A stretch of DNA of 64,000 nt from the IMG/VR virus record IMGVR_UViG_3300032254_000001, positions 1 through 64,000 of that record. One strand, 5' to 3'. This document shows positions 4,496 to 51,560 of this stretch, piece after piece (positions within the stretch are counted from its first letter, which is position 1; each line of letters opens with the position of its first letter). The position numbers were made by a program, and so were the translations under genes. Under the pieces are notes generated by a model. That model made no database searches. It was not told where the DNA came from and was given only the letters and a program-made list of their open reading frames with translations. This DNA comes from a virus (taxonomy: Duplodnaviria; Caudoviricetes).

Positions 4496-5362
4496 TTAAA
4501 AGTCTCCGTAGTTAACTTGGAATACAGTTAAGCCCAAGTGACGCCACATGTGAACAACTTGATCACGGTCATCAAATACGCCCAACACATTGTAATTGTC
4601 TTTAATGTGTCGGTAGTAGATTTCCTCTTTGATCAACGTATCCTTGCGGTTATCACCTTCTGGGCGGATGTAGAAATGATCGTACTTTACGCCGATGTCG
4701 GCTAACCACTGAACAGTCAAGTCCTTGCAAACACCGTCACGACCACTTACCATAATAACTGTATGACCAGCGTCCTTCAATGTGTTGACAACGGAGATAA
4801 CATCCATACGAGGCAAGTCGGTATCAACCTTCATCCACTCAAATGGACCACGTCCGTTCATTTGTGCAACAGTACCGTCGATGTCTACTAAGTAGCAACC
4901 AGGCAAGCTTTCGTCCTGTGCAGGCGTAGGCCACCAATCTTCTTTGTTGCGTTCGTACATGCCCATGATAACTTTTGAACCAACTGGGAATTCACGACGC
5001 GCATCACGCTGGATTAATTCACCAACAGTAACATCGGTGAATAACTTTTCACGGTAAGAAGCACCCATATCTTTAGCAAGTTCTTTCCACGCACGGTTGC
5101 GGTCTGGGTTCAAGTTAGTGTCTGAGACAATAACTGACTTACCGTTCTGCAATGCAGCGATAACAGAATGACGTGCGATTTCACTAACAGTGTTTTCACG
5201 CCACTTGCTGAACTTGTTATAACGATCACGACCTTGCAACATCAATCGGATGTCGTCACGATTAACATTCACATATTCAGGATGTGTTTTGATGAATTCA
5301 ACTGCCCAAGTAGTTTTGCCACTTGCTGGCAATCCGACAGTTACGACTAATTCTTGTGTCAT
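4496..5362 (-). CDS. pseT: polynucleotide 5'-kinase/3'-phosphatase (T4 PseT-like)
   Basis: P-loop GLPASGKT, NRDDIR, HAD motif DIDGT, SGRD, FDDR; start moved to MTQELV. Confidence 0.95.
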   Translation of the reverse strand: MTQELVVTVGLPASGKTTWAVEFIKTHPEYVNVNRDDIRLMLQGRDRYNKFSKWRENTVSEIARHSVIAALQNGKSVIVSDTNLNPDRNRAWKELAKDMGASYREKLFTDVTVGELIQRDARREFPVGSKVIMGMYERNKEDWWPTPAQDESLPGCYLVDIDGTVAQMNGRGPFEWMKVDTDLPRMDVISVVNTLKDAGHTVIMVSGRDGVCKDLTVQWLADIGVKYDHFYIRPEGDNRKDTLIKEEIYYRHIKDNYNVLGVFDDRDQVVHMWRHLGLTVFQVNYGDF

Positions 5363-5755
5363 ACTTTTTCCTCTATTGTTTGAGCTATTGTCAGAGCGAA
5401 CAATAATTCCTCTAACATACAATCTTCAAAATCTTTAACACAAATGGCACAGTAAGAATCAGTTATGATTCCTGTTGATGTGAATCCTTCAATTCGCATT
5501 CCAGTAAACTCATCAACGTGTGCAAATGTCTCGCCGTCTTCTGTGTTATCAAATGTATAAAGACGGGTATAAACAGTGTCCGGTTTCTCGCCTGCTGGCG
5601 CATTAATTAGTTCTGCGGTGTTTTCAATATAGCCACTTTCCCACAAGCGTGGTTCAAGTATACGTTTGATTTTCTGTGTAATTTCAAACTTATGGTTATT
5701 AATTTGGATTAGGCCAATCATAAAAAACCCCTGCATTACTATAATCTATGTACTA

Positions 5756-7689: not shown

Positions 7690-8465
7690 TAAGCCTTCTC
7701 TGTGTACATTCTTTGGTCTGCAATGTTGATTAACTCATCAACACTGTCAGCTTCATTGCTTAGTGCAACACCGATACTACACGAGATTTCAACAGTGTGT
7801 TCGCGTATATGTATCGGTTCCTCAACAAGAGCTTTAATCTTCTCGCTTACGATAGCGGAAGTGTTGTGGTTACCGTCAACGACAATAACAAACTCATCGC
7901 CACCGTAGCGACAAAATAAATCAGTCTCACGTATAATGCCTTTGATTCGCTTCGCAACAGTCTTTAACACAAGGTCACCTGTAATGTGACCCATTGTATC
8001 GTTAACTGCTTTGAACTTATTCAAGTCAATAAACAACAGTGAGTAATCTGACTGCATTCGATTTAGTGCAACAAAAAACTGATCTCGGTTTAGTGTATCA
8101 GTTAGCGTATCGCCGGTTGAGTATTCAGTTGGATCGTGGAATATACCGTACGCCATACCTTCACTCAGTCCTTTAATTTTAATGCACATGTTTATATGCC
8201 TGCCGGACTTGGTAACACCAAATACGCGAGCATGTGAGTTCTCGTCCATTACTGCCCAAGAGTCATCGCTGATCTTGCTATGCAGAATGTAATCGTTTAG
8301 ATTAGTATCTAACAATTCTTCTGGGAGGTACTCAAGTAACCCTGCGCCAAATGTGTTTATGTCGACAATATTAAGATCGTCATCGAACATAACCATACCA
8401 ATTGGGCAGGTGTTAATAAGAGTGTACATTGTGTTATTGTCAATATTGGTCATAATCCTTACCAT
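7689..8465 (-). CDS. PAS-GGDEF diguanylate cyclase
   Basis: FIDLNKFKAVNDTMGHITGD, RETD I-site, RYGGDEF; PAS-like N-terminus. Confidence 0.92.
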   Translation of the reverse strand: MVRIMTNIDNNTMYTLINTCPIGMVMFDDDLNIVDINTFGAGLLEYLPEELLDTNLNDYILHSKISDDSWAVMDENSHARVFGVTKSGRHINMCIKIKGLSEGMAYGIFHDPTEYSTGDTLTDTLNRDQFFVALNRMQSDYSLLFIDLNKFKAVNDTMGHITGDLVLKTVAKRIKGIIRETDLFCRYGGDEFVIVVDGNHNTSAIVSEKIKALVEEPIHIREHTVEISCSIGVALSNEADSVDELINIADQRMYTEKA

Positions 8466-9517
8466 TCAATTTTCTTGATTGATCGTAACAGGAACTCTTT
8501 CCAGTTAGGTTCTGCAGCCTTGCTATAGTACTGCATAGCTGCTGGGAATTCTAACGAAGTTAGCACATCCTGGCCTTTGATTGCATACTCTTTGCGCGAC
8601 AAGTCTTTATTTTCTAACCAATAAGCTGTAACTGTGTTAACAAGCAAATTAGCCTTCTGAATAACCTTGTGTTGCAATTCCTGCATTTCCTTTAATACTT
8701 CCGGTTGGTCAGCAATTAAAGTAAACACATCGTCTGCCTCGTCCTTAAGTACCAACTCGATAAAAGCATTTGGTTGGTTTACAAAGTCCTTGGCGCGGTG
8801 GCGTTCTAAGTACCAATTGCACTTTTCTTTCCACCAGTTCCCCAAATCATCAACTACAACATAACCTTCTATGTTGGTAACTGAATCCAGTTCCAGCAAT
8901 GCATCGTGATCAGCAGTGCCGGTAAAATAGTTATCTGGCATTGATTCAATTGCCATGTACTCACCTGTGATGCGGTGTCGCACATTTAAAATAATTAATT
9001 GTGGTTCGTTGTAATACAACACAATACGGTACTTAGGGTCAGGTGACACCAGTTCCATATTTACTGTATAACCATCACGCTCGCACCATTTAACAAAGTC
9101 AAACAATTCAATGTCAGCGTACATTAATTCTGTTGCAAGTTGCGCATATTCAGAATGGATGCTAGTCTTAGACTTCAAAAGAAGCTTACCATCTGCAGAC
9201 GTAAATGAACTAATTAGTGAACCGTCAGCCTTAATCATAACGTGCTGTGGGTTACCGTAATTGATAAAGTCCACTTCACCTTTGTTGAAGAACTTTTGCA
9301 TTGGGCGCGAAGCTATACGAATGAACTCACCTTGCTCGGTTACTTCAAACATAATACCACGTGACTCTAACGCTGATGTTAACAACCATGAATCCTTATC
9401 AGTAAAGTGATAAGAGAAGATGCGATAGTGCTCATTTTCCAGTTGTGTGTCTGCATGGAAAAATGGAGTATCGTCATTGTTGCATAAAAGCATTAAGTTT
9501 TCGTAAAGTTCTTTCAT
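8459..9517 (-). CDS. rnlA: RNA ligase 1 (T4 Rnl1 family)
   Basis: ESRGIMF, SRPMQKFFN, KADGSL (motif I), EGYVV; start moved to MKELYE. Confidence 0.92.
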   Translation of the reverse strand: MKELYENLMLLCNNDDTPFFHADTQLENEHYRIFSYHFTDKDSWLLTSALESRGIMFEVTEQGEFIRIASRPMQKFFNKGEVDFINYGNPQHVMIKADGSLISSFTSADGKLLLKSKTSIHSEYAQLATELMYADIELFDFVKWCERDGYTVNMELVSPDPKYRIVLYYNEPQLIILNVRHRITGEYMAIESMPDNYFTGTADHDALLELDSVTNIEGYVVVDDLGNWWKEKCNWYLERHRAKDFVNQPNAFIELVLKDEADDVFTLIADQPEVLKEMQELQHKVIQKANLLVNTVTAYWLENKDLSRKEYAIKGQDVLTSLEFPAAMQYYSKAAEPNWKEFLLRSIKKIEW

Positions 9518-10038
9518 TCTGCTTCCTCTAAATACCCTTGGTATACAAAAACACTGCGGTAGTCGCCGTTCTGTTGTCGTATACAATTTCTTACTAAATC
9601 TGATTGGTTTGTAAATGTTGCCAGTCCTTTATCTGCTAATTTTTTAGCAGCTTGCACTTCGCGATTTCCAAACACTGAAGTCCTAGAATACTTGCTGTGT
9701 TTCATGCGTTCTAATAACTTCGTTTCAGTTTTATTAAGCTTCATTACTCGTCTGGTTCAACTTGGTTTACAAAAAACATCTTGTATGTTACTACATGGTC
9801 GCCTTTAATGGCATACCCTGCATGTTTATCTTTGCGCTTCCATTTAGTAACGCCCTGCTCTCCCGTTCTTCCTAGAAACTCTTCACATGTATCGATTGCG
9901 GTTTTTCGACTTGATGTCACGCCAACGATATTAGTGCTGTCCTCCTTGTCATGTGCTATATTATCTAAAATTACATAAGCTCTCATTTGACCTCTCCGAG
10001 TTTTAATAGCTCTGAGCTATATTACTTTTCATACTGTA

Positions 10039-24145: not shown

Positions 24146-26224
24146 TTACAAGTAATCTGAGTTAATGTCAACGATATCGTATGGTGTTACGTCTGCGTCA
24201 TCCATTGCAAATACAAAATCAGCTTCGTCGCGCTCTGTTACAAGTGTACCACGTGTCTTACCGTGGATCTCGAACAGCTCACCTAAGGTGATCTTATTGT
24301 CTAAGCTAGTGAATGCTTCAACCATATCCTGGATAGTAGCCTTGTTGTTTTCAACGTTGTTGCCACTGCGACCCCATTTCTGAGAATCATAACCGGTATC
24401 GAAACGCTTGCCGTTTGTGCTAATATCAGCCCAAATTGCCTTACGTTCTTTAAGGTCGAATATTACAGGTATAACATTCTTGCTTGCACTGCGTAGGTCA
24501 ATCTTCTGAGCAACAGTCTTTGGTTCAAAGATTTCGTTACTCTTAACCTTGTCGCGTGTCATCCAACCTGCGAAACATTCTTCATGCTCTGCAAATGTAG
24601 GACCACTGTACACTAGCACGTTCATTGCTACGTAGCGGTAGGTGCTATCGTAGTCAAGTACAGACTGAATGTCAACATCCACAAACTCACTTGCACCGCT
24701 AGGCGCACTGGTGATGTCACCTGAGTGAGCAGACTTGTAGCCACTAGACTTAAGGTTAGTGTATGATACGTGTCCAACTTGATTAAAGCTTTCATCGTGG
24801 AATGTAGCAGACAAATCAATGTCTTGGCCTTTCCAGTAGATGAAGAAGCGAAGTGCTGCTTTATCACCAATTGGCATACGTGTACCACGTGCTACTTCTT
24901 TCAAGCCTTCGCTTGCAGAACGCATTGCAGTTGGCAATGGGCATTCGTACAATGCTGGGTCGATGTAAACTTTACCAAGGGCGTCTAACGCGCTGAAACG
25001 TGTAGTTAGAGAAGTGGTAATAACATTCAATAAGTGTGTGCGAACCTCAGGTGCAAGACGTGCAACTTCATTACGAAGTACGTATGCACTTTGAACCATA
25101 CCCTTAGGGAATACAACACGCTTGTCAAGAACTTTGTCACGTGACTTAGTCGCGCCCCAAAGCTGTGTTAAGTTACGCGCTGGTACTTGGTCTACAACTT
25201 CTGCAAATGCATCAACAATACCTGAGTGGTCATGCACATCTTTATAGATCAAGTCAATGATCTTACGTGCAAAGATACCTGGGCGAGTCTTAAGCAATTT
25301 AATGCTAGTTGGGATATCACTCACTTGCATAGCTTCTTCGATCTTACCATTGAAGGTTTCGATCTTTTTGTTCTCACGAAGCTTTGCAGCGATATCATAT
25401 AGCTTTTGGCTATAGTCGCCTACGTGTAAGTTGTGAAGTAATTTAATCCACTTGTTGCTGTGACGTACAAAGTCTTCTTCTTTTGCTACACGTTCTAGGT
25501 CTTTAACTAATACCTTGCGAACTTTACGTGGCAATGATTTGAATTTAGTATTCTCAGCTAGAGAAATGTCGCCTTCATTTAAGAAGGTAACGATACGTAG
25601 AATGTCAGTTGTGTCCTTAACAAGATCACTGTTCCACATATCATTCTTAAGGAACAAACCTGCTAGTAAGCAAATGTTTTCCTTAAAGGGAATATTCTCC
25701 GGCATAGAAATATAACGGCCGGAGTCAACGTACCATTCTACTGTTTCTTTGCTAAATCCTGAAATAGAATCTGCAGACTGAAGTATTTTACCAAACACAT
25801 TATCGAGGTCAGCCTCAGTAACGACACCGAGTGTTTTGAATTTAACATTTTCAAAACTAACTGGACGCTTGTTGATAGCGAAGGCAGGTTGCCACTCGCC
25901 GTGTGTCCAATAATGTGCCTGAGCGTTAATGAATAGCTCAGCTTCATCAGCCTCCATGACTTGGTCTGGAAAGTTTGGGTAGAAAGGTTTGTGAACCACG
26001 TTTGCGCCCACCAGTTCCTTTAGGACTGGCATGACGTCTTTATATAGAGATGCAATATCTTCACGATCAAGCTCGCTTAACTCGTCTGCAAGTTCCGCAG
26101 TAGGCATGAAGCCATAAGACATCATGTCAGAGATGAACGCCAGGCTGTAGCCCTTCTGCTCATCAATACGGTTTTCAGGCAATGTAATACCATTGCAAAG
26201 TTTAATAGCGATTTTCTGTTTCAT
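24146..26224 (-). CDS. large helical protein with C-terminal TerD-like domain
   Basis: C-terminal DIDLSA..GHVSYTNL..HSGDITSAP.GASEFVDVD (TerD-like); about 450 aa helical N-terminus. Confidence 0.75.
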   Translation of the reverse strand: MKQKIAIKLCNGITLPENRIDEQKGYSLAFISDMMSYGFMPTAELADELSELDREDIASLYKDVMPVLKELVGANVVHKPFYPNFPDQVMEADEAELFINAQAHYWTHGEWQPAFAINKRPVSFENVKFKTLGVVTEADLDNVFGKILQSADSISGFSKETVEWYVDSGRYISMPENIPFKENICLLAGLFLKNDMWNSDLVKDTTDILRIVTFLNEGDISLAENTKFKSLPRKVRKVLVKDLERVAKEEDFVRHSNKWIKLLHNLHVGDYSQKLYDIAAKLRENKKIETFNGKIEEAMQVSDIPTSIKLLKTRPGIFARKIIDLIYKDVHDHSGIVDAFAEVVDQVPARNLTQLWGATKSRDKVLDKRVVFPKGMVQSAYVLRNEVARLAPEVRTHLLNVITTSLTTRFSALDALGKVYIDPALYECPLPTAMRSASEGLKEVARGTRMPIGDKAALRFFIYWKGQDIDLSATFHDESFNQVGHVSYTNLKSSGYKSAHSGDITSAPSGASEFVDVDIQSVLDYDSTYRYVAMNVLVYSGPTFAEHEECFAGWMTRDKVKSNEIFEPKTVAQKIDLRSASKNVIPVIFDLKERKAIWADISTNGKRFDTGYDSQKWGRSGNNVENNKATIQDMVEAFTSLDNKITLGELFEIHGKTRGTLVTERDEADFVFAMDDADVTPYDIVDINSDYL

Positions 26225-26247: not shown

Positions 26248-26312
26248 GTGGAAAGTAGAAAGACTAAGTTTTTTTCAAATAAAAGTTAGAAGGAAGTCAA
26301 TTCAATAGCCAC
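26248..26312 (-). ncRNA. Y-RNA-like scaffold RNA, member D (minimal)
   Basis: GUGG-CUAU-stem-CUUCCUUCU...stem-ACUUU-CCAC; terminal pair covaries relative to the GAGG/CCUC members. Confidence 0.7.
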
Positions 26313-26328
26313 AAAATCGTTTGTTAGT

Positions 26329-26470
26329 ATAGGAAATTAGGGATAGTAATCCTAGTAGAATTTATGTAATCTACATAACATTGTTGGCTTGTTCCAGTTA
26401 AGGAGTTGCCAACATCATTGAGTTAGAAGGAACTACTGTTTCGGTATCTCACCGTGGCCCTATAGCCTAT
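26329..26470 (-). ncRNA. Y-RNA-like scaffold RNA, member E (two-hairpin payload)
   Basis: AUAGG-CUAU-AGGG..AGUAG-UUCCUUCU...CUACU..CCCU-AAUUU-CCUAU; payload hairpins UGUUGGC/GCCAACA and UUAUGUA/UACAUAA. Confidence 0.65.
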
Positions 26471-33939: not shown

Positions 33940-34458
33940 TTATTCCTTTGCGTTATTTTGTGCCCAATCTAAATCAAGCACTTCGCCGTATTCTTCCACC
34001 ATCTCAATAGGACCTTCGTAGTCTGGAAGTCCATCTATATCCATATCGTTTATGTCATATGAGAAAGTGATGTGTGTTTTGTATTCTGGAAAATCGAATG
34101 TAGCATTATGCTCATCCATTAAGTAATCATGTCTTTCGTTTAGCTCAGGACAATCAAATTCTAAAACTAAACATTGCGGGCAATGTCCGTCATCGTCTGC
34201 TTGTCCTTCCCAAACATGCCATTCACCTGGCGTACCATGTAGAGCAGGATTAAGTTCACCCTGCGGCTTGTAATTTGGACATCTTCGTCTGCTATACAAT
34301 AAAGTAGAATGTAACTTATCTACTGGTGTAGCATTCGGGATATTGTTATTCTTAATGTATTCAACAATAGCATTCTTTGTTTCTTCACTAAAATGCACAC
34401 CTGCGTATGTACCTTTGTGATGTGTCTTTCTTATAAATTCATTTGACTTCATTTGCAT
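33940..34458 (-). CDS. acb1: anti-CBASS 2H phosphoesterase Acb1 (T4 gp57B-like)
   Basis: GTYAGVHFSEET, KLHSTLLYSR, ATFDFPEYKTHITFSY, EVLDLDW parallel T4 57B; two HxT motifs. Confidence 0.88.
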   Translation of the reverse strand: MQMKSNEFIRKTHHKGTYAGVHFSEETKNAIVEYIKNNNIPNATPVDKLHSTLLYSRRRCPNYKPQGELNPALHGTPGEWHVWEGQADDDGHCPQCLVLEFDCPELNERHDYLMDEHNATFDFPEYKTHITFSYDINDMDIDGLPDYEGPIEMVEEYGEVLDLDWAQNNAKE

Positions 34459-35417
34459 AAACGGTAGGAATTTTTTCCTGCCTCCTTAACTTCGTACATT
34501 GCAATATCAGCACCTTCGATTAACTCATTGGTGTTGATAATACATTTCTCTCCGCTACTAAAGCAGATGCCTACGCTTGCTGTTTGTATTATTTCATTGC
34601 CATCATGTACACATGGCTTATTAAACAGATGCACTAAGTCAGCACATTTTTTAAGTAGGTCTTCTTTTTTATTATCTAGGCACGATACAACAAATTCATC
34701 ACCGCCGTAACGGGCAACAACATCTGTTTTTCTTGAAAACACAGATCTAATCTTTTCAGCAAAGTCTACAATAATTGCGTCACCTGCTACGTGTCCGTAT
34801 GTGTTATTGACTACGCTAAAGTCGTCCATGTCTAATAGGATTAACCCAACTGACGTTTTTGTTCTGTTTGCATTGTGTATTGTTCCTTCCATTTGTTCTA
34901 AGAAGAAACGCCTGTTGTACAAATCAGTGCCTGGATCTCTAAATGCTAATGCTTTTAATTCTTCTTCGTAACGTTTACGCTCTGTAATATCAGTTATCAT
35001 TGCAATGATAACTGATTCGTTACCATTTACAAACTGTAGCCTGACTTCGATCTCGTAAGTTGAGCCGTCTTTTCTTAGATGCGTAGTCTGGAATCTTAGT
35101 ATGTCTAACTCAAAAGTACGTAACGGCTGAATCATTTCAATGAACTCTGCTCGCGTAAATTCTGGCTTAACATCAAGTGGAGTCATACCTTTCATTTCAT
35201 CTAACGTGTACCCAAGGTTTTTAAGTGCGCCTTGACTAACTTCTGAGAATAGTAAGGTTTCACAATCAAATACATAAATCTCCTCAAATGAGTGTTCGAG
35301 GATCCTTTTGTATCTTGCCCTTTTATCATTAACTTCGTCTGTGATATCACATGTGGTTCCATCACGTGAACAATCGATTTTAGGCAACGGGGGGAATTTG
35401 TTTTTCTTATCGTCCAT
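34449..35417 (-). CDS. PAS-GGDEF diguanylate cyclase
   Basis: PAS/PAC (HLRKDGSTYEIEVRL), DPGTDLYNRR, LLDMDDFSVVNNTYGHVAGD, RKTD I-site, RYGGDEF. Confidence 0.93.
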   Translation of the reverse strand: MDDKKNKFPPLPKIDCSRDGTTCDITDEVNDKRARYKRILEHSFEEIYVFDCETLLFSEVSQGALKNLGYTLDEMKGMTPLDVKPEFTRAEFIEMIQPLRTFELDILRFQTTHLRKDGSTYEIEVRLQFVNGNESVIIAMITDITERKRYEEELKALAFRDPGTDLYNRRFFLEQMEGTIHNANRTKTSVGLILLDMDDFSVVNNTYGHVAGDAIIVDFAEKIRSVFSRKTDVVARYGGDEFVVSCLDNKKEDLLKKCADLVHLFNKPCVHDGNEIIQTASVGICFSSGEKCIINTNELIEGADIAMYEVKEAGKNSYRLCK

Positions 35418-39202: not shown

Positions 39203-39289
39203 TGGTATTCCGGACGGGAATCGAACCCGCTAATTGCTTTCGCAAAGCCTGAGTGAAAGTCAGGTGACCGACCGTTAGTCATCCGGAAT
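39203..39289 (-). tRNA. tRNA-Glu(TTC) with long variable arm
   Basis: CCTGA-CTTTCAC-TCAGG then TTGC-GAAA-GCAA arm. Confidence 0.8.
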
Positions 39290-39295
39290 ATAATT

Positions 39296-39382
39296 TGGAG
39301 CCAAGAGTGAGATTCGAACTCACGACGGGGTTACCCCTCCGGCTTACAAAACCGGTGCAATCGTCCACTATGCGACCTTGGC
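39296..39382 (-). tRNA. tRNA-Thr(TGT) with long variable arm
   Basis: CCGGT-TTTGTAA-GCCGG then GGGG-TAA-CCCC arm. Confidence 0.8.
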
Positions 39383-39398
39383 AAGATAAAATGTACTT

Positions 39399-39475
39399 TG
39401 GGGTGAAGGACGAGATTTGAACTCGCATCTGACTCATTCACAGTGAGGGGCTTTACCAATTAAGCTACCGACACC
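39399..39475 (-). tRNA. tRNA-His(GTG)
   Basis: CTCA-CTGTGAA-TGAG, genomic G-1, C73-CCA. Confidence 0.88.
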
Positions 39476-39490
39476 CCAAAATACACTCGT

Positions 39491-39515
39491 AAAAAAGCAG
39501 ACCGGAGTCTGCTTT
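39491..39515 (-). terminator. intrinsic terminator
   Basis: AAAGCAGAC-TCCG-GTCTGCTTT followed by T tract on minus strand. Confidence 0.75.
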
Positions 39516-39517
39516 AT

Positions 39518-39686
39518 GGTTGTGGGACGCGGACTTGAACCGCTGGTAGATTTCCTTCCCAACTAATTTAGCTATGGGCTTCAACTCCACAGCCCAAGAC
39601 AGTAACTCAAATACTTGCCCGAGGCGGTCGACTAGGTAGTCCCCAAGTTATGAGCAAGGGCGATTTATTGTGTAGTCGATACCACA
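39518..39686 (-). ncRNA. unassigned structured RNA ending in T-arm and CCA
   Basis: 3' GCGG-TTCAAGT-CCGC..TCCCACA-A-CCA; internal stems CTTGCTC/GGGCAAG and GGGCT/AGCCC. Confidence 0.45.
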
Positions 39687-39713
39687 CCGAAGTGCCTAAC
39701 TAAAATTCTAAAA

Positions 39714-39831
39714 TGGTGCCTCCCGCGAGACTTGAACTCGCATGACTTTCGTCGGGGGATTTTATCGAACACCCTTATTTAAAGATGCTCTGTAAAAGTC
39801 CCCTGTGTATGCCTGATTCCACCAGAGAGGC
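39714..39831 (-). tRNA. tRNA-Leu(TAA) interrupted by a 32-nt hairpin insertion
   Basis: class II body; GGGGA-CT[32 nt]TAAAA-TCCCC. Confidence 0.75.
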
Positions 39832-39895
39832 TTTGTTTTTGTTTATTTATTATAACATCATGTGCTTCAAATAAATACCGTATAGGAGAAACACA

Positions 39896-40510
39896 ATGAA
39901 TAGAATACAAGAATACTTACCAAGCTACTGCTACAGTTCATCTAAGATGAAAAGCGTAGATGGTATTGTTATCCACTATTTCAGTGGTAAGTATCAATTT
40001 GCAGATGATCCGTTTAACACTGAAAAATGTTTAAATCTTTTTAAAGACTTAAACCGTCCCGCTAAAGAGCGAGAACACTTTAAGATGAACGATGTGCAAA
40101 AGCGTATGTACGCTTCAGCACACTTCATGATTGCACGAGACGGTACAATATATGATCTAGTTCCACTTCCACAACGTGCATGGCATGCTGGTAAATCCGA
40201 ATGGAACGGTAAGTCGCATTGCAATAACTGGATGGTTGGTATCGAAATGGTTGCTACTGGTAGCAGCGGATACACAGACGAACAGTATAAAGCACTTATT
40301 AATCTTACTGAAGAACTAATTAAAGAACACGATATCTCTTGGGATAACATCACAGGACACGAAAATGTCGCTCCTGGACGTAAAAGAGATCCAGGTTCAA
40401 AGTTTGATTGGGATCGTTATCGCGCAATGAAAGAACCAGCTAAGTTAGCATATGCTGCCGCTATGGCTGAATACATTCCGTGGGCTGACGACGAAGACGA
40501 CGATTTTTAA
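39896..40510 (+). CDS. N-acetylmuramoyl-L-alanine amidase (Amidase_2/AmpD-like)
   Basis: IVIHY, SAHFMI..DG, AWHAG, IGIEM-like VGIEM, GHENVAPGRKRDPG. Confidence 0.92.
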   Translation: MNRIQEYLPSYCYSSSKMKSVDGIVIHYFSGKYQFADDPFNTEKCLNLFKDLNRPAKEREHFKMNDVQKRMYASAHFMIARDGTIYDLVPLPQRAWHAGKSEWNGKSHCNNWMVGIEMVATGSSGYTDEQYKALINLTEELIKEHDISWDNITGHENVAPGRKRDPGSKFDWDRYRAMKEPAKLAYAAAMAEYIPWADDEDDDF

Positions 40511-40512
40511 TT

Positions 40513-40598
40513 TGGTGCGCCGGGTGGGTTTCGAACCCACACGCTCTTTCGAGCACGAGGTTCTTAGCCTCGCATGTCTGCCATTCCATCACCAGCGC
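40513..40598 (-). tRNA. tRNA-Leu(AAG)
   Basis: CGAGG-CTAAGAA-CCTCG, long variable arm, A73-CCA. Confidence 0.88.
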
Positions 40599-40600
40599 AT

Positions 40601-40683
40601 TGGTACGTCCGGTGGGATTCGAACCCACAAAGGTCTGGTGTTTGAAACCAGTAGCTGTGCCAATTTACATTAACCACGGACGC
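40601..40683 (-). tRNA. tRNA-Leu(CAA), no variable arm, enlarged D arm
   Basis: CTGGT-TTCAAAC-ACCAG; D region GTTAATGTAAATTGGCACAGC. Confidence 0.75.
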
Positions 40684-40691
40684 ATTACATT

Positions 40692-47274: not shown

Positions 47275-47952
47275 TTATTCTTGTTTTAATACTCTACCTT
47301 TTTTAAAACCTTCTGGTATAGTATCATTCTTTTTGATCTTTTTATTAATTGTTCCGTCTGTTATCCACATCGTTCCGTACTGTGAATTGCCACTGCCTTG
47401 CTGACACTTAGATGAATTTGCACCTATAGCATCTTTTGTTTCTTGTGTATGCTTCTTATTTTTAAATGTACCGTGACCGTAGCGTTCAAGTATAGTTGCT
47501 TTAATCTTTTGTCCTGCTTGCTTGAACGATTCAGGCGTTCTATTTTTACCTGACATTTTACCAATGATACTCTTGAAATCATCACCGTACTTTTCTAGTA
47601 ATATACTATCTGTTATTTCTCGTGCCCTGCGATTCTTTTGAATACGTGCCTCTTCGTTAGAGTTTATATAATCCCATCCACCAAAGCCACCAACCTTAAG
47701 ATTGTATGTATTTTCTTCTGCAATAAAGTCTTTATTAACTATTTCGGCTTCTTTATTAAACATATCTTCTGGATTGTCAAATACATGTAAAATTTCTTTG
47801 CTAAAATTTTCAACACCGTGTTTATTAATTGCATAGTTAAGGTACTTTCCTGAACCTAAATAACCATCGTTTAAGTTACTGGTCTTATGCGCGCCTATAT
47901 AGACCTTGCCTGTAACTTTATTTGACGTCTTATAAATTGTATAGTAAACCAT
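47275..47952 (-). mobile_element. GIY-YIG homing endonuclease (NUMOD3 C-terminus) between two tRNA-Gly genes
   Basis: TIYKTSNKVTGKVYIGAH..DGYLGSG, HTQETKDAIG; start moved to MVYY. Confidence 0.9.
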
Positions 47953-47993
47953 ACTATTATTTATGACGTTCGAGTCCATATCGAACTCTAATG

Positions 47994-48072
47994 AGCGGGT
48001 GACGAGAATCGAACTCGCCATGCTTTCGCGTCTGGTTGGAAACCAGGTTCCACACCTTGTGGACTCACCCGC
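47994..48072 (-). tRNA. tRNA-Gly(TCC) with extended variable arm, no encoded CCA
   Basis: CTGG-TTTCCAA-CCAG then GC-GAAA-GC arm, U73. Confidence 0.75.
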
Positions 48073-48197
48073 ATAAATTAAATTTGTAGCCTTGCCCATT
48101 ACTCGCAAATGTCACACTGGTCCTCAGAATTGAACTGCCACGGGCGGGTATATTCTGCCCCGCCCTGCAAACCATTGCTAACCAGCACTACAAAATT

Positions 48198-48278
48198 TGG
48201 CGTCCAGCGTCGGTATTGCACCGCACTCCTACTCCAGTAACGTTATCTCTGGAGCAACACGTCTCATGTTGACTGAAC
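48198..48278 (-). ncRNA. tRNA-like RNA with 6-bp D stem and 11-nt anticodon loop
   Basis: GTTCAGT/GCTGGAC-G-CCA, CAACAT/GTGTTG, CTCCAG/CTGGAG, T-loop TGCAATA. Confidence 0.5.
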
Positions 48279-48287
48279 ATATAAAGT

Positions 48288-48360
48288 AGAGGAAAGTGAA
48301 AACACTATTCGGTTTGATTAAAAGTCAATTTTTAGAAGGAAGTGAACTTTCATAGCCTCT
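48288..48360 (-). ncRNA. Y-RNA-like scaffold RNA, member A (tRNA-Lys(UUU) anticodon stem-loop payload)
   Basis: AGAGG-CUAU..CACUUCCUUCU..UUGA-CUUUUAA-UCAA..ACUUU-CCUCU. Confidence 0.75.
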
Positions 48361-48365
48361 TTATT

Positions 48366-48384
48366 TGGTGCCCTGTTACAGGGC
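48366..48384 (-). ncRNA. CCA-terminated microhelix
   Basis: GCCCTG-TAA-CAGGGC-A-CCA. Confidence 0.5.
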
Positions 48385-48390
48385 GATATT

Positions 48391-48465
48391 TGGCGACGTA
48401 GAAGGGAATCGAACCCTCATTGTACTGATAGACAATCAGCTGCATTACCAATCTGCCACTACGCC
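48391..48465 (-). tRNA. tRNA-Asp(GTC)
   Basis: GCTGA-TTGTCTA-TCAGT, G73-CCA. Confidence 0.9.
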
Positions 48466-48722
48466 GTAATTCTTTTCTTACATCCCCAAGTATCTGTTTG
48501 TCTATGACAGTTAGGGCAAAGCAATCTTAAGTTAGATGGAAATGCATTTTCTACATCTCCGTCTATATGATCTAAATCTAATACAATTGGCTTATTTTGC
48601 CATTCGTTTATTCCGCATATTGCACAGAACTCACCGTCTCTTTCCACGACATACTTTCCTGCTTCTATCAGTGGTACTTGTACAGTTTTCCATTGATAAG
48701 CTTGCTGACATGTGTTGTTGCA
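48459..48722 (-). pseudogene. degenerate HNH endonuclease
   Basis: CAICG..DHIDGDVENAFPSNLRLLCPNCH; upstream CNNTCQQ zinc-finger part is cut off by an in-frame TAA and has no proper start. Confidence 0.65.
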
Positions 48723-48870: not shown

Positions 48871-48954
48871 GAGGAAATTGATATTACTAAACCAGTTGCC
48901 CTAAGGGCATCTTTGGAGTCGAACCAAAATAGAAGGAAGCAATATCATAGCCTC
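48871..48954 (-). ncRNA. Y-RNA-like scaffold RNA, member C (T-arm plus microhelix payload)
   Basis: GAGG-CUAU-GAUAUUG-CUUCCUUCU..UUUGG-UUCGACU-CCAAA, UGCCC-UUA-GGGCA..UAAUAUC-AAUUU-CCUC. Confidence 0.75.
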
Positions 48955-49675: not shown

Positions 49676-49850
49676 ATTATAATGTAGCTAACTTACTGTG
49701 TCAACCTCTATTTTAAATTAATTTAAAAATAGTGGCTAACGCCGTGTTGTTTATTAAGTATGTAGCTATTATATGACAGCTAATATACTGTGTCAACTAC
49801 TTTTTGCATTTTATTTGCCAAAATAGGCAATTTTCGCTAAGTTGTTGATT
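49676..49850 (-). promoter_or_regulatory. tandem duplicated sigma70 promoters upstream of the tRNA array, plus IHF-like site
   Basis: TTGACA-17-TATAAT at 49676-49704 and 49768-49796, both followed by AGCTACATACTTAAT; AATCAACAACTTA at 49838-49850. Confidence 0.78.
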
Positions 49851-50010: not shown

Positions 50011-50967
50011 TTATGGTATAATTCCTTGCTGTACCTGCATATAGAAGTATTTCGCTATTGCAGCATTAACGCGCTCGGACATATGATACCCATCCCTGTT
50101 ACATAATAATATTCTTTTTGCATAGCCTAAGAATATAGTTATTAGTCTGTGGTCACATGGCTGGAAGTGCTTGTAAACATTTTCGCCCATTACGCAAAGC
50201 TTACAGAATTCCATGTACGGCATCCAACTCTCGCCTGCGTTGTGATTGTACTTTTCTAATAAGAACTCTGACGATAAGAAAGAGTTTATATTAATGTCAC
50301 GGAAGTCAGTCTTTACTAACTTCATGTAATCATGTACATCCGGAAAGTGTTCGTATATACACTTTAGTTCATCTTCGCGGAAAGTCCACGGAGGTAAGAA
50401 CTGTGTATGTGCGCCATGTATCCAGTAATTTTTCTTAAAGCTAACTATAGTTCCGTCGATGCCTGCGTGTACGCCTGCACCGGTTTTAGTTAACTTAATT
50501 CTAGATTCTACGTTGTTGTCTTCGTATAAGTTCTGTAAAACAAAAACGTGTTGAACATCAAAGAACTCTTTTGCTTTTTCGAGTAGCTCTGGATAATACA
50601 CAAATGAAGTTCGACTAAGGCCAAAATTCAATGTTGGTATATCAAAGTACTTTCCTAGTTGGTAAGGCCAACTGTGTTCAACTGGACCACCTACGTTGGA
50701 AGTAAAGCTATCGCCTAAGCAAATGTTTATCTTCTGTCCGTACAGTGATTCAAAATCCCTATCCCTGGCACCCCATGAATTAAAACTGTAATCAAAATCG
50801 GTTAATGGATAATGATCCCAATATGATTTGCCTAGTATACATTCCTCGGGGTTGTCTCTACTGAACGGAGCTTGAAAAACTTTGTTTGCCCTACGTGCGG
50901 CCTTTATCCAGACTGAACGAGGCAAACCCCATTTCTTTATTATATCATTTGATATTGTTGATTTCAT
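50011..50967 (-). CDS. SGNH/GDSL-like protein
   Basis: CLGDSFT..HSWPYQL..TLNFGLS; C-terminal RDGYH. Confidence 0.55.
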   Translation of the reverse strand: MKSTISNDIIKKWGLPRSVWIKAARRANKVFQAPFSRDNPEECILGKSYWDHYPLTDFDYSFNSWGARDRDFESLYGQKINICLGDSFTSNVGGPVEHSWPYQLGKYFDIPTLNFGLSRTSFVYYPELLEKAKEFFDVQHVFVLQNLYEDNNVESRIKLTKTGAGVHAGIDGTIVSFKKNYWIHGAHTQFLPPWTFREDELKCIYEHFPDVHDYMKLVKTDFRDININSFLSSEFLLEKYNHNAGESWMPYMEFCKLCVMGENVYKHFQPCDHRLITIFLGYAKRILLCNRDGYHMSERVNAAIAKYFYMQVQQGIIP

Positions 50968-51560
50968 TATACCAAATGATTCAAGTACGTATGACGTGCT
51001 TTCTTTTCAGCATCGGTTAATTTCTTAATACCAAATTCAGCTTCGTAGATATCATCAATGTCAATGCCAAGTGTATCACAACCATCAAGGAAGTTATCCC
51101 AGCTTAAGCCATTATCAAATTCAACTTCAATCCACTGTCCTTCGGCTGCTACAGTATCTGCTCTAGGATGATCCATTATTTGCTTAATGTATCTACAGCT
51201 AGTATCGTCATCAACGGCAATAAACTTATCACCTTCTTTGCTGAATTGCTGCAACCACCAAACAATTTCACTACCTCTAGAGCTAGTCATTTTCTTTGGA
51301 GTAAGTATTTCATCGTGGTAATCAAACCCAAGACCGTTGTGTAACATGATTGCCTTTAGCTCATCAACTGAGTAATTATGTGCCCACGCTGTGCTAAACA
51401 CAATCTTAGCGTTGCCGTACTTTGCCCAAAGGTTAAACGCACGAATAGAGAACGCATCAAATTGAGGATGGTTCTCTTTACCTGTTTTACGATTCTGATG
51501 GAACATGTGCATCTTACGAGGTATCAGTGGTCCATCAATGTCTACAAAAATTATATTCAT
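50967..51560 (-). CDS. HAD-superfamily protein (Swiss-army-knife RNA-repair-like HAD)
   Basis: IFVDIDGPL, IVFSTAW, RGSEI..W, FIAVDDD. Confidence 0.8.
   Translation of the reverse strand: MNIIFVDIDGPLIPRKMHMFHQNRKTGKENHPQFDAFSIRAFNLWAKYGNAKIVFSTAWAHNYSVDELKAIMLHNGLGFDYHDEILTPKKMTSSRGSEIVWWLQQFSKEGDKFIAVDDDTSCRYIKQIMDHPRADTVAAEGQWIEVEFDNGLSWDNFLDGCDTLGIDIDDIYEAEFGIKKLTDAEKKARHTYLNHLV

What the first reader, a model, noticed from the sequence alone, without database searches (positions are those of the whole stretch)
48288..48384. tRNA-Lys(UUU) anticodon decoy plus a CCA microhelix
Seen: scaffold member A carries UUGA-CUUUUAA-UCAA, the same 7-nt loop as both tRNA-Lys(UUU) genes in the window. 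Immediately upstream in the transcript is GCCCUG-UAA-CAGGGC-A-CCA, an acceptor-only microhelix. Known: tRNA-Lys(UUU) anticodon loops are the target of PrrC, which T4 counters with Pnk and Rnl1, both encoded here. Inference: separated anticodon and acceptor parts acting as nuclease sponges or substrates.
Basis: partly seen in the sequence, partly recalled or inferred. Interest (0 to 1): 0.7.

Follow-up and report, generated by a model that had tools for sequence, protein, structure and literature searches.

The report
tRNA-Lys anticodon mimic on Y-like RNA
A giant uncultured phage makes, inside its tRNA operon, a small RNA whose conserved "handle" belongs to a widespread family encoded beside a Ro60-shaped protein, and whose tip is an exact copy of the bacterial lysine-tRNA anticodon arm; this tip is probably bait for a protein that normally grips or cuts that tRNA, while the neighbouring CCA "microhelix" looks like a stripped-down tRNA slot rather than a second decoy.

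Summary
Both sequence features are present exactly as described. The hairpin UUGA-CUUUUAA-UCAA (48328-48314, minus strand) is more than a shared loop. All 15 nt equal the E. coli-type tRNA-Lys(UUU) anticodon arm, and the 15-mer is unique in the 344-kb genome.

It is the variable "payload" of member A (48359-48289) of a covarying, uncatalogued RNA family: P1, a CUAU/RNUUU loop, P2, a CUUCCUU bulge, P3, then the payload. This phage has five copies, and there are more than 100 in other phages and bacteria. The family travels with a ~690-aa protein with a Ro60-like ring and a TerD domain (window 24146-26224).

Anticodon-arm payloads are strongly enriched. The Lys version (GA-CUUUUAA-UC core) recurs on at least six different stems, and pair 29:41 shows all four Watson-Crick pairs.

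Function is inferred. Most likely it is a decoy or bait for an anticodon-arm-directed tRNase (PrrC, RloC or PARIS AriB type), alongside the Pnk and Rnl1 genes encoded here. A Y-RNA-style tether is the main rival.

The microhelix is unique to this phage. It sits in a tRNA slot that holds a whole tRNA-like gene in the nearest syntenic relative, so it is probably a tRNA remnant or processing signal.

This scan had already met the handle family on other DNA. The Lys anticodon-arm payload analysis is new.

The parts
48289..48359 (-). Member A, a handle-plus-payload small RNA of 71 nt. Parts: P1 GAGG (48359-48356) with CCUC (48292-48289); J1/2 CUAU (48355-48352); P2 5' strand 48351-48343 with 3' strand 48304-48298; conserved CUUCCUUCUAA (48342-48332); P3 CUA with UAG (48307-48305); J2/1 ACUUU (48297-48293).
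   Evidence: Covariance model R1 scores it 55.5 bits, E 1e-11. Family covariation is shown. It is one of five exact-pattern hits in the genome, all on the minus strand, with 0 in the control.
48314..48328 (-). Payload: anticodon-stem-loop mimic UUGA-CUUUUAA-UCAA. This corresponds to tRNA positions 28-42 of E. coli-type tRNA-Lys(UUU).
   Evidence: The 15 nt are identical to E. coli tRNA-Lys. The 15-mer is unique in G000 even at 1 mismatch. The same core recurs on other stems. The hairpin is in the minimum-free-energy fold but not the centroid; it is a weak 4-bp stem.
48366..48384 (-). Microhelix GCCCUG-UAA-CAGGGC plus ACCA. Read as 7+7 complementary bases (GCCCUGU / ACAGGGC) it is an acceptor stem without a tRNA body.
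   Evidence: Folds at -10.3 kcal/mol, z -3.7. It follows the array syntax of 6-nt spacers. Its 3' strand is 7/7 and its 5' strand 6/7 identical to the acceptor of the tRNA-like gene at 45446-45518. It is unique. The G006 slot holds a whole tRNA-like gene.
48391..48465 (-). tRNA-Asp(GUC) with encoded CCA; the upstream neighbour in the operon.
   Evidence: ARAGORN and Rfam, 58.1 bits. The same tRNA-Asp-to-A order is seen in G006.
48871..48954 (-). Member B. Same handle; the payload is a T-arm-like hairpin (UUGG-UUCGACU-CCAA) plus a GCCC-UUA-GGGC hairpin.
   Evidence: R1 51.5 bits, and it was not in the training set. Fold z -3.5.
44544..44677 (-). Member C. Same handle; the payload is a permuted tRNA body (T arm, loop-closed acceptor, D arm).
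   Evidence: R1 37 bits. The payload weakly matches Rfam YrlA positions 30-81, 18.1 bits, E 0.49.
26248..26469 (-). Members D (26312-26248) and E (26469-26330), directly upstream of the partner protein gene.
   Evidence: R1 60 bits and 14.9 bits. Sequence shown.
24146..26224 (-). 692-aa partner protein: an N-terminal helical ring of Ro60-like fold plus a C-terminal TerD-fold domain.
   Evidence: No Pfam hit. AF2 model pLDDT 86.5. TerD match Z 15.6; four Ro60 structures at Z 10.1-10.4 over about 300 residues; the next unrelated match is Z 6.5. Homologs lie in 47 loci that were fetched by the RNA motif alone.
4496..5422 (-). Polynucleotide kinase-phosphatase (T4 Pnk type).
   Evidence: AAA_33 plus HAD_PNKP, E 2e-51.
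8459..9586 (-). RNA ligase 1 (T4 Rnl1 type).
   Evidence: RNA_lig_T4_1 plus T4_Rnl1_C.
40781..41031 (-). The phage's own tRNA-Lys(UUU) x2 and tRNA-Lys(CUU). The loops are CUUUUAA, but the stems (GCGG/CCGU and CCUGA/UCAGA) differ from the payload.

Best explanation
Shown:
- Member A is one of five small RNAs of this phage built on a conserved, covarying handle. The handle marks a large, uncatalogued RNA family encoded beside, or in the same genomes as, a protein with a Ro60-like fold and a TerD domain.
- The variable tip of A is a copy of the bacterial tRNA-Lys(UUU) anticodon arm. This is a recurrent payload type of the family.

Inferred:
- A is transcribed with the tRNAs from the two consensus promoters at about 49.7 kb. 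It is cut out by the tRNA-processing machinery: RNase P at the 5' ends of the flanking acceptor helices, followed by trimming.
- Its handle is bound by the Ro60-like protein, as Y RNAs are bound by Ro60.
- The exposed anticodon arm is then offered to a protein that normally recognises this arm. I consider the most likely client to be a host anticodon-arm-directed tRNase (PrrC or RloC type, which cut in the loop, or PARIS AriB type, which cuts U36AAUC|A41).
- The particle would act as a competitive decoy or bait. It would work next to the phage's other answers to tRNA-Lys attack: Pnk plus Rnl1 repair, and its own tRNA-Lys genes with altered stems.
- The microhelix is not a second decoy. It is a tRNA-derived acceptor stub that occupies a tRNA slot, and at most it serves as a processing punctuation mark between tRNA-Asp and A.
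For: The family is real:
- The exact pattern gives 5 hits against 0 in the control.
- Handle pairs are 91% paired against 61% in shuffles and 35-53% when slid.
- Model R1 finds members B, C and E, which were not in the training set, and more than 100 further copies.

The protein link:
- tblastn finds the protein in 47 loci fetched by the RNA motif only.
- Tandem RNA arrays lie directly upstream of the gene in L125.
- Fold search gives Ro60 at Z about 10 and TerD at Z 15.6.

The anticodon-arm mimicry:
- The 15-nt payload is identical to E. coli-type tRNA-Lys and unique in the genome.
- CU-NNN-AA loops number 16 against 0.34 expected.
- The Lys arm recurs on stems UUGA, UUUGA, UCGA, UUAGA, CGGA and UAGA. 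Pair 29:41 appears as C-G, A-U, U-A and G-C. The arm is 95.6% paired against 75.8% in shuffles, 0/500.
- In four bacterial genomes the payload keeps the loop and the two loop-proximal pairs of that genome's own tRNA-Lys, but differs further out.

The nuclease link:
- PrrC's main recognition cues lie in the anticodon stem-loop, and T4 offsets the damage with Pnk and RNA ligase 1 (PMC1484252).
- AriB targets tRNA-Lys(UUU), Thr(UGU) and Asn(GUU), which share U36AAUC (PMC12409363). Family payloads include UUU, UGU, GUU, GGU and GAU arms with that same GA...UAAUC core.
- Pnk and Rnl1 are in the window.

Transcription context:
- Two 12/12 consensus promoters lie upstream, and there is no minus-strand terminator before A.
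Against: - No expression or end-mapping data exist for this RNA.
- The host and its defence genes are unknown.
- The family and its Lys payload also sit in bacterial chromosomes and MAGs (Aliikangiella, a Lentisphaerales MAG). This favours a housekeeping or RNA quality-control role over a purely anti-defence one.
- The closest syntenic ortholog (G006) has UCA-ACUUUUA-UGA and has lost the GA/UC core.
- A's stem has only 4 bp and is absent from the centroid fold.
- Natural anticodon nucleases can depend on base modifications that a mimic may lack.
- The AT-rich loops overlap the loop types expected in AT-rich sequence, although shuffles do not reproduce them.
- Members of alignment A1 were picked with a pairing filter, so part of the handle statistic is circular.
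Confidence: 0.45

Rival explanations
1. Y-RNA-style tether. The anticodon arm is an adaptor that brings a tRNA-binding enzyme to the Ro60-like/TerD protein, for RNA surveillance or for control of tRNA metabolism. Candidate enzymes are LysRS, the t6A37 or xm5s2U34 modification enzymes, and a tRNA repair or decay enzyme. No nuclease attack is involved.
For: - Bacterial Y RNAs tether Ro60 to effectors, and YrlA carries a tRNA-like module that tRNA enzymes recognise (PMC4201824).
- Family payloads are modular tRNA parts: anticodon arm, T arm, elbow.
- The family occurs in bacterial genomes as well as phages.
- Payload 'anticodons' are nearly all NNU or NNA followed by A37-A38. This is the class of tRNAs that carry t6A37 or i6A37; that assignment is from my own knowledge.
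Against: - No client has been identified.
- The invariant part extends into the stem (G30-C40, A31-U39). That is where AriB cuts, and it is less critical for LysRS, which reads the anticodon bases (own knowledge).
- The phage context is rich in counter-defence and repair genes: Acb1, Pnk, Rnl1 and HAD_SAK_2.
Confidence: 0.3
2. Bait or sensor. The payload is meant to be cut. Cleavage of the displayed anticodon arm by an invading or host tRNase changes the RNP, for example by releasing or activating the TerD-domain protein, and so signals tRNA damage.
For: - Ro60/Y-RNA genes sit in an RNA-repair operon regulated by damaged tRNAs in Salmonella (PMC7790460, seen only in the listing).
- TerD domains are described as ligand-binding or sensing parts of Ter stress systems (PMC7824862).
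- Bacterial copies exist.
Against: This is entirely inferential. No signalling output domain was recognised in the protein.
Confidence: 0.1
3. The anticodon hairpin and the CCA microhelix are two halves of a split decoy, aimed specifically at PrrC and at an acceptor-end enzyme.
For: - The two lie next to each other.
- The microhelix has a perfect stem, A73 and CCA.
- In other family members a small hairpin sits just 5' of the Lys arm, inside the payload.
Against: - The microhelix lies outside the handle.
- It is found in none of the other members inspected.
- It is absent from G006, where the slot holds a whole tRNA-like gene.
- Hairpin plus NCCA is common in the genome.
- Nothing singles out PrrC over other nucleases.
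Confidence: 0.08
4. No dedicated function for this copy. A is a decaying paralogue whose hairpin was copied from a tRNA-Lys gene by recombination, and the microhelix is a deletion scar of a tRNA gene.
For: - The G006 ortholog has a degraded arm.
- A lacks the inner hairpin that accompanies the Lys arm in other lineages.
- The microhelix's acceptor resembles that of the tRNA-like gene at 45446-45518.
Against: - A keeps an intact handle (55.5 bits).
- Its arm is a perfect 15-nt match.
- The payload type recurs in many lineages with compensatory changes.
Confidence: 0.07

Closest known systems
YrlA-type Y RNAs with Ro60/Rsr (Rfam RF02553; Chen et al. 2014, PMC4201824)
   Same: - A small RNA with a terminal protein-binding stem and a variable module that mimics tRNA.
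- Several paralogous RNAs per genome, encoded beside the protein gene.
- Found in bacteria and phages, and linked to RNA-repair genes.
- The partner protein has a Ro60-like ring fold.
   Different: - The handle sequence and structure differ (CUAU/RNUUU loop and CUUCCUU bulge instead of the GNCGAAN0-1G motif).
- There is no Rfam match for A or B.
- The protein has no TROVE Pfam hit and carries a TerD domain where Ro60 has vWA.
- A's payload is an isolated anticodon arm, the one tRNA part that YrlA lacks.
T4 Pnk + Rnl1 repair of PrrC-cleaved tRNA-Lys (PMC1484252)
   Same: The target is tRNA-Lys(UUU), recognised through its anticodon stem-loop. Homologs of both repair enzymes are encoded in the window.
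   Different: T4 repairs the damage after the cut. Here a mimic of the target is made, and no PrrC is known for the (unknown) host. T4's own tRNA-cluster stable RNAs rnaC and rnaD do not match the handle model.
Phage T5 tRNA variants that neutralise PARIS AriB (PMC11464382, PMC12409363)
   Same: - A phage-encoded RNA answer to cleavage of the anticodon arm of tRNA-Lys(UUU), Thr(UGU) and Asn(GUU).
- The shared U36AAUC motif is the invariant core of the Lys, Thr, Asn and Ile payloads of this family.
- One of this phage's own tRNA-Lys genes has changes at positions 39 and 41.
   Different: T5 supplies functional, cleavage-resistant whole tRNAs. Member A is a bare arm on a non-tRNA scaffold, cannot decode, and matches the cleavable host-type sequence.
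Anticodon-arm mimics that bind synthetases (E. coli thrS operator; yeast aaRS mRNA anticodon mimics, PMC6542539)
   Same: An isolated hairpin that copies a cognate anticodon loop is used as a protein-binding site outside a tRNA.
   Different: Those are cis-acting mRNA operators for autoregulation. This is a payload on a trans-acting small-RNA scaffold with its own protein partner. The thrS case is from my own knowledge and was not checked here.
Minimal RNase P / CCA-enzyme substrates (acceptor microhelices, external-guide-sequence substrates; own knowledge)
   Same: The microhelix is a 6-7-bp helix followed by A73-CCA, placed where a tRNA would be in the operon.
   Different: It is a natural genomic element of unknown processing, and no T-stem extension is present. 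It was not tested here.

Membership tests
Handle RNA family of this scan (model R1; not in Rfam) | P1 and P2 helices that covary around a conserved CUAU / RNUUU internal loop | tested here: met
   Member A scores 55.5 bits. Across the family, pairs are 91% paired against 61% in shuffles and 35-53% when slid; P1 pairs occur as GC, UA, AU and CG. Caveat: the training rows were chosen with a pairing filter. Members B, C and E and the L125 array were found independently.
Handle RNA family of this scan (model R1; not in Rfam) | Invariant pyrimidine bulge (C)UUCCUUCU followed by P3 (CUA with UAG) that encloses a variable payload | tested here: met
   CUUCCUUCUAA lies at 48342-48332 and UAG at 48307-48305.
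Handle RNA family of this scan (model R1; not in Rfam) | Genomic linkage to the ~690-aa Ro60-fold/TerD protein | tested here: met
   The protein is in the same genome (24146-26224), with D and E directly upstream. Homologs lie in 47 loci fetched by RNA motif alone. Arrays sit upstream of the gene in L125, L243, L231 and others.
YrlA / Y RNA (RF02553) | Reaches the Rfam gathering score (69 bits) | tested here: not met
   No hit for member A or B at E <= 10. Only member C's payload reaches 18.1 bits, E 0.49.
YrlA / Y RNA (RF02553) | Ro60-binding motif GNCGAAN0-1G near the 5' end (Chen et al. 2014) | tested here: not met
   The 5' strand of the handle is NNGG-CUAU-P2, with no such motif.
YrlA / Y RNA (RF02553) | Partner is a TROVE-domain Ro60/Rsr encoded nearby | tested here: not met
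   PF05731 is absent from the whole 344-kb genome. The linked protein has no Pfam hit, though its fold resembles Ro60 (Z about 10).
YrlA / Y RNA (RF02553) | tRNA-like T-arm/D-arm domain | tested here: not met
   Member A carries only an anticodon-arm hairpin. Sister member C does have the T/D domain.
tRNA (RF00005) | Cloverleaf with acceptor, D, anticodon and T arms | tested here: not met
   Neither ARAGORN nor Rfam calls anything in 48289-48390. The microhelix has only the acceptor stem plus ACCA, and A has only the anticodon arm.
tRNA-Lys(UUU) anticodon-arm mimic | Sequence identity with a genuine tRNA-Lys(UUU) arm, including a 7-nt loop C32 U33 UUU A37 A38 | tested here: met
   15/15 nt match E. 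coli tRNA-Lys positions 28-42 and the phage tRNA-Lys genes of L168 and L173.
tRNA-Lys(UUU) anticodon-arm mimic | Conservation of the loop in homologous RNAs with compensatory stem changes | tested here: met
   At least six stems carry the loop, with all four Watson-Crick pairs at 29:41. Caveat 1: eight rows were retrieved with a pattern that fixed GA-CUUUUAA-UC. Caveat 2: the G006 positional ortholog keeps only ACUUUUA.
Anticodon-nuclease decoy / sponge | Binding or cleavage by an anticodon nuclease, and protection of tRNA or phage | not testable with these tools
   Sequence fit only: PrrC's cues lie in the anticodon stem-loop, and the AriB motif U36AAUC|A41 is present in A.
Ro60 (TROVE) protein family, for the partner protein | HEAT-repeat ring plus a vWA domain | tested here: inconclusive
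   The ring-like helical part aligns to four Ro60 structures at Z 10.1-10.4, rmsd 4.2-4.8, 296-312 residues, with the next unrelated match at Z 6.5. Foldseek probability is 0.98 for Rsr. The C-terminal domain is TerD, not vWA, and there is no sequence-level TROVE signal.

The most novel reading that the evidence does not exclude
Phages and some bacteria possess a Ro60-like/TerD ribonucleoprotein whose interchangeable RNA tips display isolated tRNA parts: anticodon arms of Lys, Thr, Asn, Ser, Tyr and others, plus T arms and elbows. These tips would act as decoys or tripwires for tRNA-cleaving immune or toxin nucleases. In this reading, member A is the tRNA-Lys(UUU) cartridge of such a programmable anti-tRNase shield.
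Probability: 0.3. Interest if true: 0.85.

Novelty: new variant of a known kind. Interest (0 to 1): 0.68.

Why it matters
tRNA cleavage is emerging as a common bacterial answer to phage (PrrC, RloC, PARIS, retron-linked and Cas13-linked nucleases). The known phage answers are repair (Pnk and Rnl1) and resistant replacement tRNAs.

A scaffolded, protein-bound copy of just the targeted arm would be a third strategy. Because the payload is a short exchangeable cartridge, its sequence would report which host tRNAs are under attack in uncultured systems.

Independently of that reading, the data define a concrete, testable payload class: the GA-CNNNUAA-UC anticodon arms. It belongs to an uncatalogued Y-RNA-like family present in many phages and bacteria. 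This gives a handle on what the Ro60-like/TerD particle does, and extends the known repertoire of tRNA mimicry by Y-type RNAs to the anticodon arm.

Tried and rejected
- **Small-ORF reading of the scaffold.** Rejected. The conserved CUUCCUUCUAA falls in three different frames relative to the upstream AUG or GUG in members A-D.
- **Rfam.** At the gathering threshold and at E <= 10 there is nothing but tRNAs for A, B and the microhelix.
- **Microhelix as an intrinsic terminator.** Rejected. It has no U tract, and the scan gives no minus-strand terminator.
- **T4 species 1 and 2 RNAs (rnaC, rnaD) as relatives.** No R1 hit at E <= 1.
- **Search for other microhelices.**
  - The exact 3' strand plus NCCA occurs once in the window.
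  - 29 loci carry ACCA just before a scaffold. In those that hold real scaffold RNAs (several of the 29 are chance matches), ACCA ends a tRNA or another scaffold RNA, never a microhelix.
  - Other hairpin-NCCA sites in the genome are not in tRNA syntax.
- **Closer relatives of member A.**
  - IMG/VR holds only G006.
  - The record behind L199 (84%-identical protein) is not held.
  - The metagenome scan with the 318-aa neighbour gave only 32-33% relatives.
  - The search with the 427-aa ORF showed it to be a FadL-like host-derived gene, best hits Gammaproteobacteria, and gave no phage relatives.
- **Sequencing runs.** No RNA holder is listed. The contigs laid were identical to the window or were only tRNA-sized fragments, so they give no variation or end information.
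- **Upstream CCA as a general feature of scaffolds.** Only 26 of 86 have one, so it is not a rule.
- **Literature.** Searches of the held library for anticodon-arm decoys, phage tRNA sponges, or a TerD-Ro60 particle found no description. This is not proof that none exists.
Full report
**What is there**

The window is the first 64 kb of a 344,483-bp IMG/VR phage genome with terminal repeats. At least 38 tRNA genes lie on the minus strand between 33 and 49 kb. All but a few odd tRNA-like calls have an encoded CCA, and where they are adjacent they are typically separated by 6-nt A-rich spacers.

On the minus strand the layout is as follows:
- tRNA-Asp (48465-48391)
- AAUAUC
- the hairpin GCCCUG-UAA-CAGGGC plus ACCA (48384-48366)
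- AAUAAA
- a 71-nt element (48359-48289) that contains UUGA-CUUUUAA-UCAA (48328-48314)

Both tRNA-Lys(UUU) genes of the window have the loop CUUUUAA. A T4-type Pnk (4496-5422) and Rnl1 (8459-9586) are encoded in the window.

**The scaffold is a real RNA family**

The 71-nt element shares one architecture with four other minus-strand loci: 48954-48871, 44677-44544, 26312-26248 and 26469-26330. The architecture is:
- P1 (NNGG/CCNN)
- an internal loop CUAU / RNUUU
- a roughly 7-bp P2
- a bulged CUUCCUU
- a short P3 (CUA/UAG)
- a variable payload

The exact pattern occurs five times in the genome, all on one strand, with no hits of the reversed control. It cannot be a small ORF, because the conserved block lies in three different frames.

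A pattern scan of IMG/VR plus a structural filter recovered about 25 further members with different P1 and P2 sequences. On a 16-sequence alignment the 14 handle pairs are 91% paired, against 61% in column shuffles and 35-53% when the partner is slid, with many double changes. There is a caveat: the rows were selected with a pairing filter.

The covariance model R1 then found members that were not used to build it:
- B at 51.5 bits, C at 37 bits and E at 14.9 bits
- nine tandem copies in L125
- 76 copies in the pattern loci
- arrays in bacterial contigs

It found nothing else in the window and nothing in the T4 tRNA region, including rnaC and rnaD. Rfam 15 has no match for A or B even at E <= 10.

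**The partner protein**

Members D and E lie directly upstream of a 692-aa ORF (24146-26224) that has no Pfam hit.

- A tblastn of this protein against loci fetched only by the RNA motif found homologs in 47 of them.
- In the 49%-identical relative L125, at least nine scaffold RNAs precede the gene, some with their own TTGACA-17-TATAAT promoters.
- The protein family has more than 700 members. Nearly all are unnamed; a few are called 'TerD family', and some lie in bacterial genomes.
- An AlphaFold model (pLDDT 86.5) has a C-terminal TerD fold (Z 15.6).
- Its helical part aligns to all four Ro60 structures offered (Thermus phage phiLo, Xenopus, human, Deinococcus Rsr) at Z 10.1-10.4 over about 300 residues. 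The next unrelated hit is at Z 6.5.
- No TROVE domain exists anywhere in the genome.

I therefore read the system as an analogue of Ro60 with Y RNAs, not as a member of that family. Other reports of this scan reached the same view on this and on other genomes. I re-tested the linkage and the fold here.

**The payload of member A is a tRNA-Lys(UUU) anticodon arm**

The 15 nt UUGACUUUUAAUCAA equal positions 28-42 of E. coli tRNA-Lys, and of the phage tRNA-Lys genes in L168 and L173. The window's own tRNA-Lys genes have other stems. The 15-mer occurs once in the genome, even with one mismatch allowed.

Across 99 distinct payloads:
- Hairpins with a stem of at least 4 bp and a 7-nt loop of the form C-U-NNN-A-A number 16. 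Shuffled payloads give 0.34, with a maximum of 2 in 200 shuffles.
- The looser form Y-U-NNN-R-N gives 25 against 4.0.
- The loops read UUU, UGU, GGU, GUU, GAU-like, GCU-like, UGA, GAA, GUA, GCA, UAG and AAU.

So anticodon arms are a regular payload class. The other classes are T-arm hairpins (member B) and permuted tRNA bodies (member C, which weakly hits Rfam YrlA positions 30-81).

**Is the Lys loop conserved?**

A scan for the bulge motif followed by GA-CUUUUAA-UC found the payload in further phage lineages: the L019/L034/L069/L118/L188 clade, L154/L159, and L193. It also found it in bacterial or MAG contigs: a Lentisphaerales MAG, Aliikangiella coralliicola, and three others. All were confirmed as family members by R1.

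The stems are UUGA, UUUGA, (U)UCGA, UUAGA, CGGA and UAGA. On an alignment that also includes the Thr-type payloads of L066 and L087, the five stem pairs are 95.6% paired, against 75.8% in shuffles (0/500) and 14-47% when slid. Pair 29:41 occurs as C-G, A-U, U-A and G-C.

The invariance of GA...UC in eight rows follows from the search pattern. L066 and L087 were retrieved without that pattern and still have it.

In four bacterial genomes the payload shares the loop and the two loop-proximal pairs with that genome's genuine tRNA-Lys(UUU), but differs from pair 29:41 outward.

One result goes against strict conservation. The only syntenic ortholog I could reach is G006 (62% protein identity, with the order tRNA-Glu, Pro, Pro..., Asp, X, A'). 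Its payload is UCA-ACUUUUA-UGA: the U-run is kept, but the register is shifted and the GA/UC core is lost.

**The microhelix**

It folds well (-10.3 kcal/mol, z -3.7). It obeys the spacing rules of the array, and read as GCCCUGU/ACAGGGC it has exactly seven complementary bases per strand plus A73-CCA.

Evidence against a decoy role:
- A 6-bp hairpin followed by NCCA is not rare here: 20 sites against 10.6 +/- 3.5 in shuffles. The other sites are not in tRNA syntax.
- None of the other family members inspected has such an element. Where a CCA precedes a scaffold, it belongs to a tRNA or to another scaffold RNA.
- In G006 the same slot between tRNA-Asp and A' holds a complete 75-nt tRNA-like gene with an unrelated acceptor stem.

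Its 3' strand is 7/7 and its 5' strand 6/7 identical to the acceptor of the odd tRNA-like gene at 45518-45446, which has an 8-nt anticodon loop and no CCA. Allowing for complementarity and about 40 comparisons, I estimate by hand (not from a tool) a chance probability of roughly 0.003-0.05, so this is suggestive only.

The simplest reading is a tRNA-derived stub left in, or retained as, a tRNA slot. From general knowledge of RNase P model substrates, a short helix plus NCCA could still direct a cut that separates tRNA-Asp from A. I could not test this.

**How it probably works**

Two perfect consensus promoters (49796-49768 and 49704-49676) precede the array, and no minus-strand terminator lies before A. 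Ten nucleotides after A a further tRNA-like element with GCCA begins (48278-48198; read by eye). So A is most likely excised from the tRNA precursor by the tRNA-processing enzymes.

By analogy with Y RNAs (PMC4201824), the handle would be held by the Ro60-like protein and the payload offered to a client. Two facts make a tRNase the most likely client for the Lys arm:
- PrrC reads mainly the anticodon stem-loop of tRNA-Lys, and T4 counters it with Pnk and RNA ligase 1 (PMC1484252).
- PARIS AriB cuts tRNA-Lys(UUU), Thr(UGU) and Asn(GUU) at the shared U36AAUC|N41 (PMC12409363). This is precisely the invariant core of the Lys, Thr, Asn and Ile-type payloads.

The phage also carries a tRNA-Lys(UUU) with changes at positions 39 and 41, as well as Acb1 and a 'Swiss-army-knife' RNA-repair HAD domain in the same region.

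All of this is circumstantial. The host is unknown. A FadL-like auxiliary gene points to Gammaproteobacteria, and the sample is a microbial mat. No RNA data exist. The presence of the family in bacterial chromosomes favours a broader tether or sensor role.

**Novelty**

tRNA mimicry by Y-type RNAs is known, and this scan has met the handle family repeatedly on other DNA. New here are:
- the isolated anticodon-arm payload class
- its Lys prototype, which has host-type sequence
- its covarying stem
- its overlap with a known nuclease recognition motif

I found no description of any of this in the held literature.

Noticed in passing
window 48198-48278 (-): Ten nt downstream of member A lies an 81-nt tRNA-like element that ARAGORN and Rfam do not call. 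It has acceptor GUUCAGU/GCUGGAC, a GCCA end, a 6-bp 'anticodon' stem enclosing an 11-nt loop, and a non-canonical T loop (UGCAAUA). Its 5' end would define A's 3' trailer.
   Followed up: partly
window 47995-48072 (-) and 48085-48195 (-): A tRNA-Sec-like gene (Rfam RF01852, 37.8 bits, below gathering; anticodon-loop UCC, long extra arm). Before it lies a ~110-nt element with acceptor-like ends UUUGUAG/CUACAAA and a GC-rich inserted hairpin.
   Followed up: partly
window 45446-45518 (-): A tRNA-like gene with an 8-nt anticodon loop (ARAGORN 'gtga'), a C5.A68 mismatch and no CCA. Its acceptor stem is nearly the same as that of the microhelix.
   Followed up: partly
window 39203-47040 (-): Eight tRNAs with anticodons of class-I type (Glu, Thr, Lys, Ile x2, Met, Gln, Asn) are 86-92 nt long with a long variable arm. 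This was also noted by another report of this scan (e1-5364918).
   Followed up: no
window 33940-35417, 7689-8465, 50967-51560: The tRNA region is interleaved with counter-defence and signalling genes: Acb1 anti-CBASS (E 7e-36), two PAS-GGDEF diguanylate cyclases, and a HAD_SAK_2 RNA-repair domain protein. HNH (48459-48647) and GIY-YIG-like (47275-48108) homing-endonuclease ORFs sit between tRNAs.
   Followed up: partly
window 41492-42775 (-): A FadL/Toluene_X-type outer-membrane transporter gene lies inside the tRNA array. It is 55-59% identical to proteins of marine Gammaproteobacteria, which makes it a likely host-derived auxiliary gene and a clue to the host.
   Followed up: partly
window 49676-49796 (-): Two perfect 12/12 sigma-70 consensus promoters lie 92 nt apart upstream of the tRNA operon.
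   Followed up: partly
L168:3307-3379 vs L173:6849-6921: Orthologous scaffold RNAs, each placed just after tRNA-Lys(UUU), differ by one base in the payload loop: CUGUAAA (Tyr-type) against CUGCAAA (Cys-type). This is a single-nucleotide 'anticodon switch' on an unchanged stem.
   Followed up: no
L160:17-84, L156, L177, L169: In some family members P1 is followed directly by ACCA, so the handle itself ends like an acceptor stem with discriminator and CCA.
   Followed up: no
L052:206-268, L029:1176-1238: Another recurrent payload reads like a ribosome-binding site with a start codon (AAGGAGAAUGAAA / UUGGAAUGAAA) rather than a tRNA part.
   Followed up: no
L168:977-1376: A phage contig with the handle family also carries a tmRNA gene inside its tRNA cluster.
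   Followed up: no
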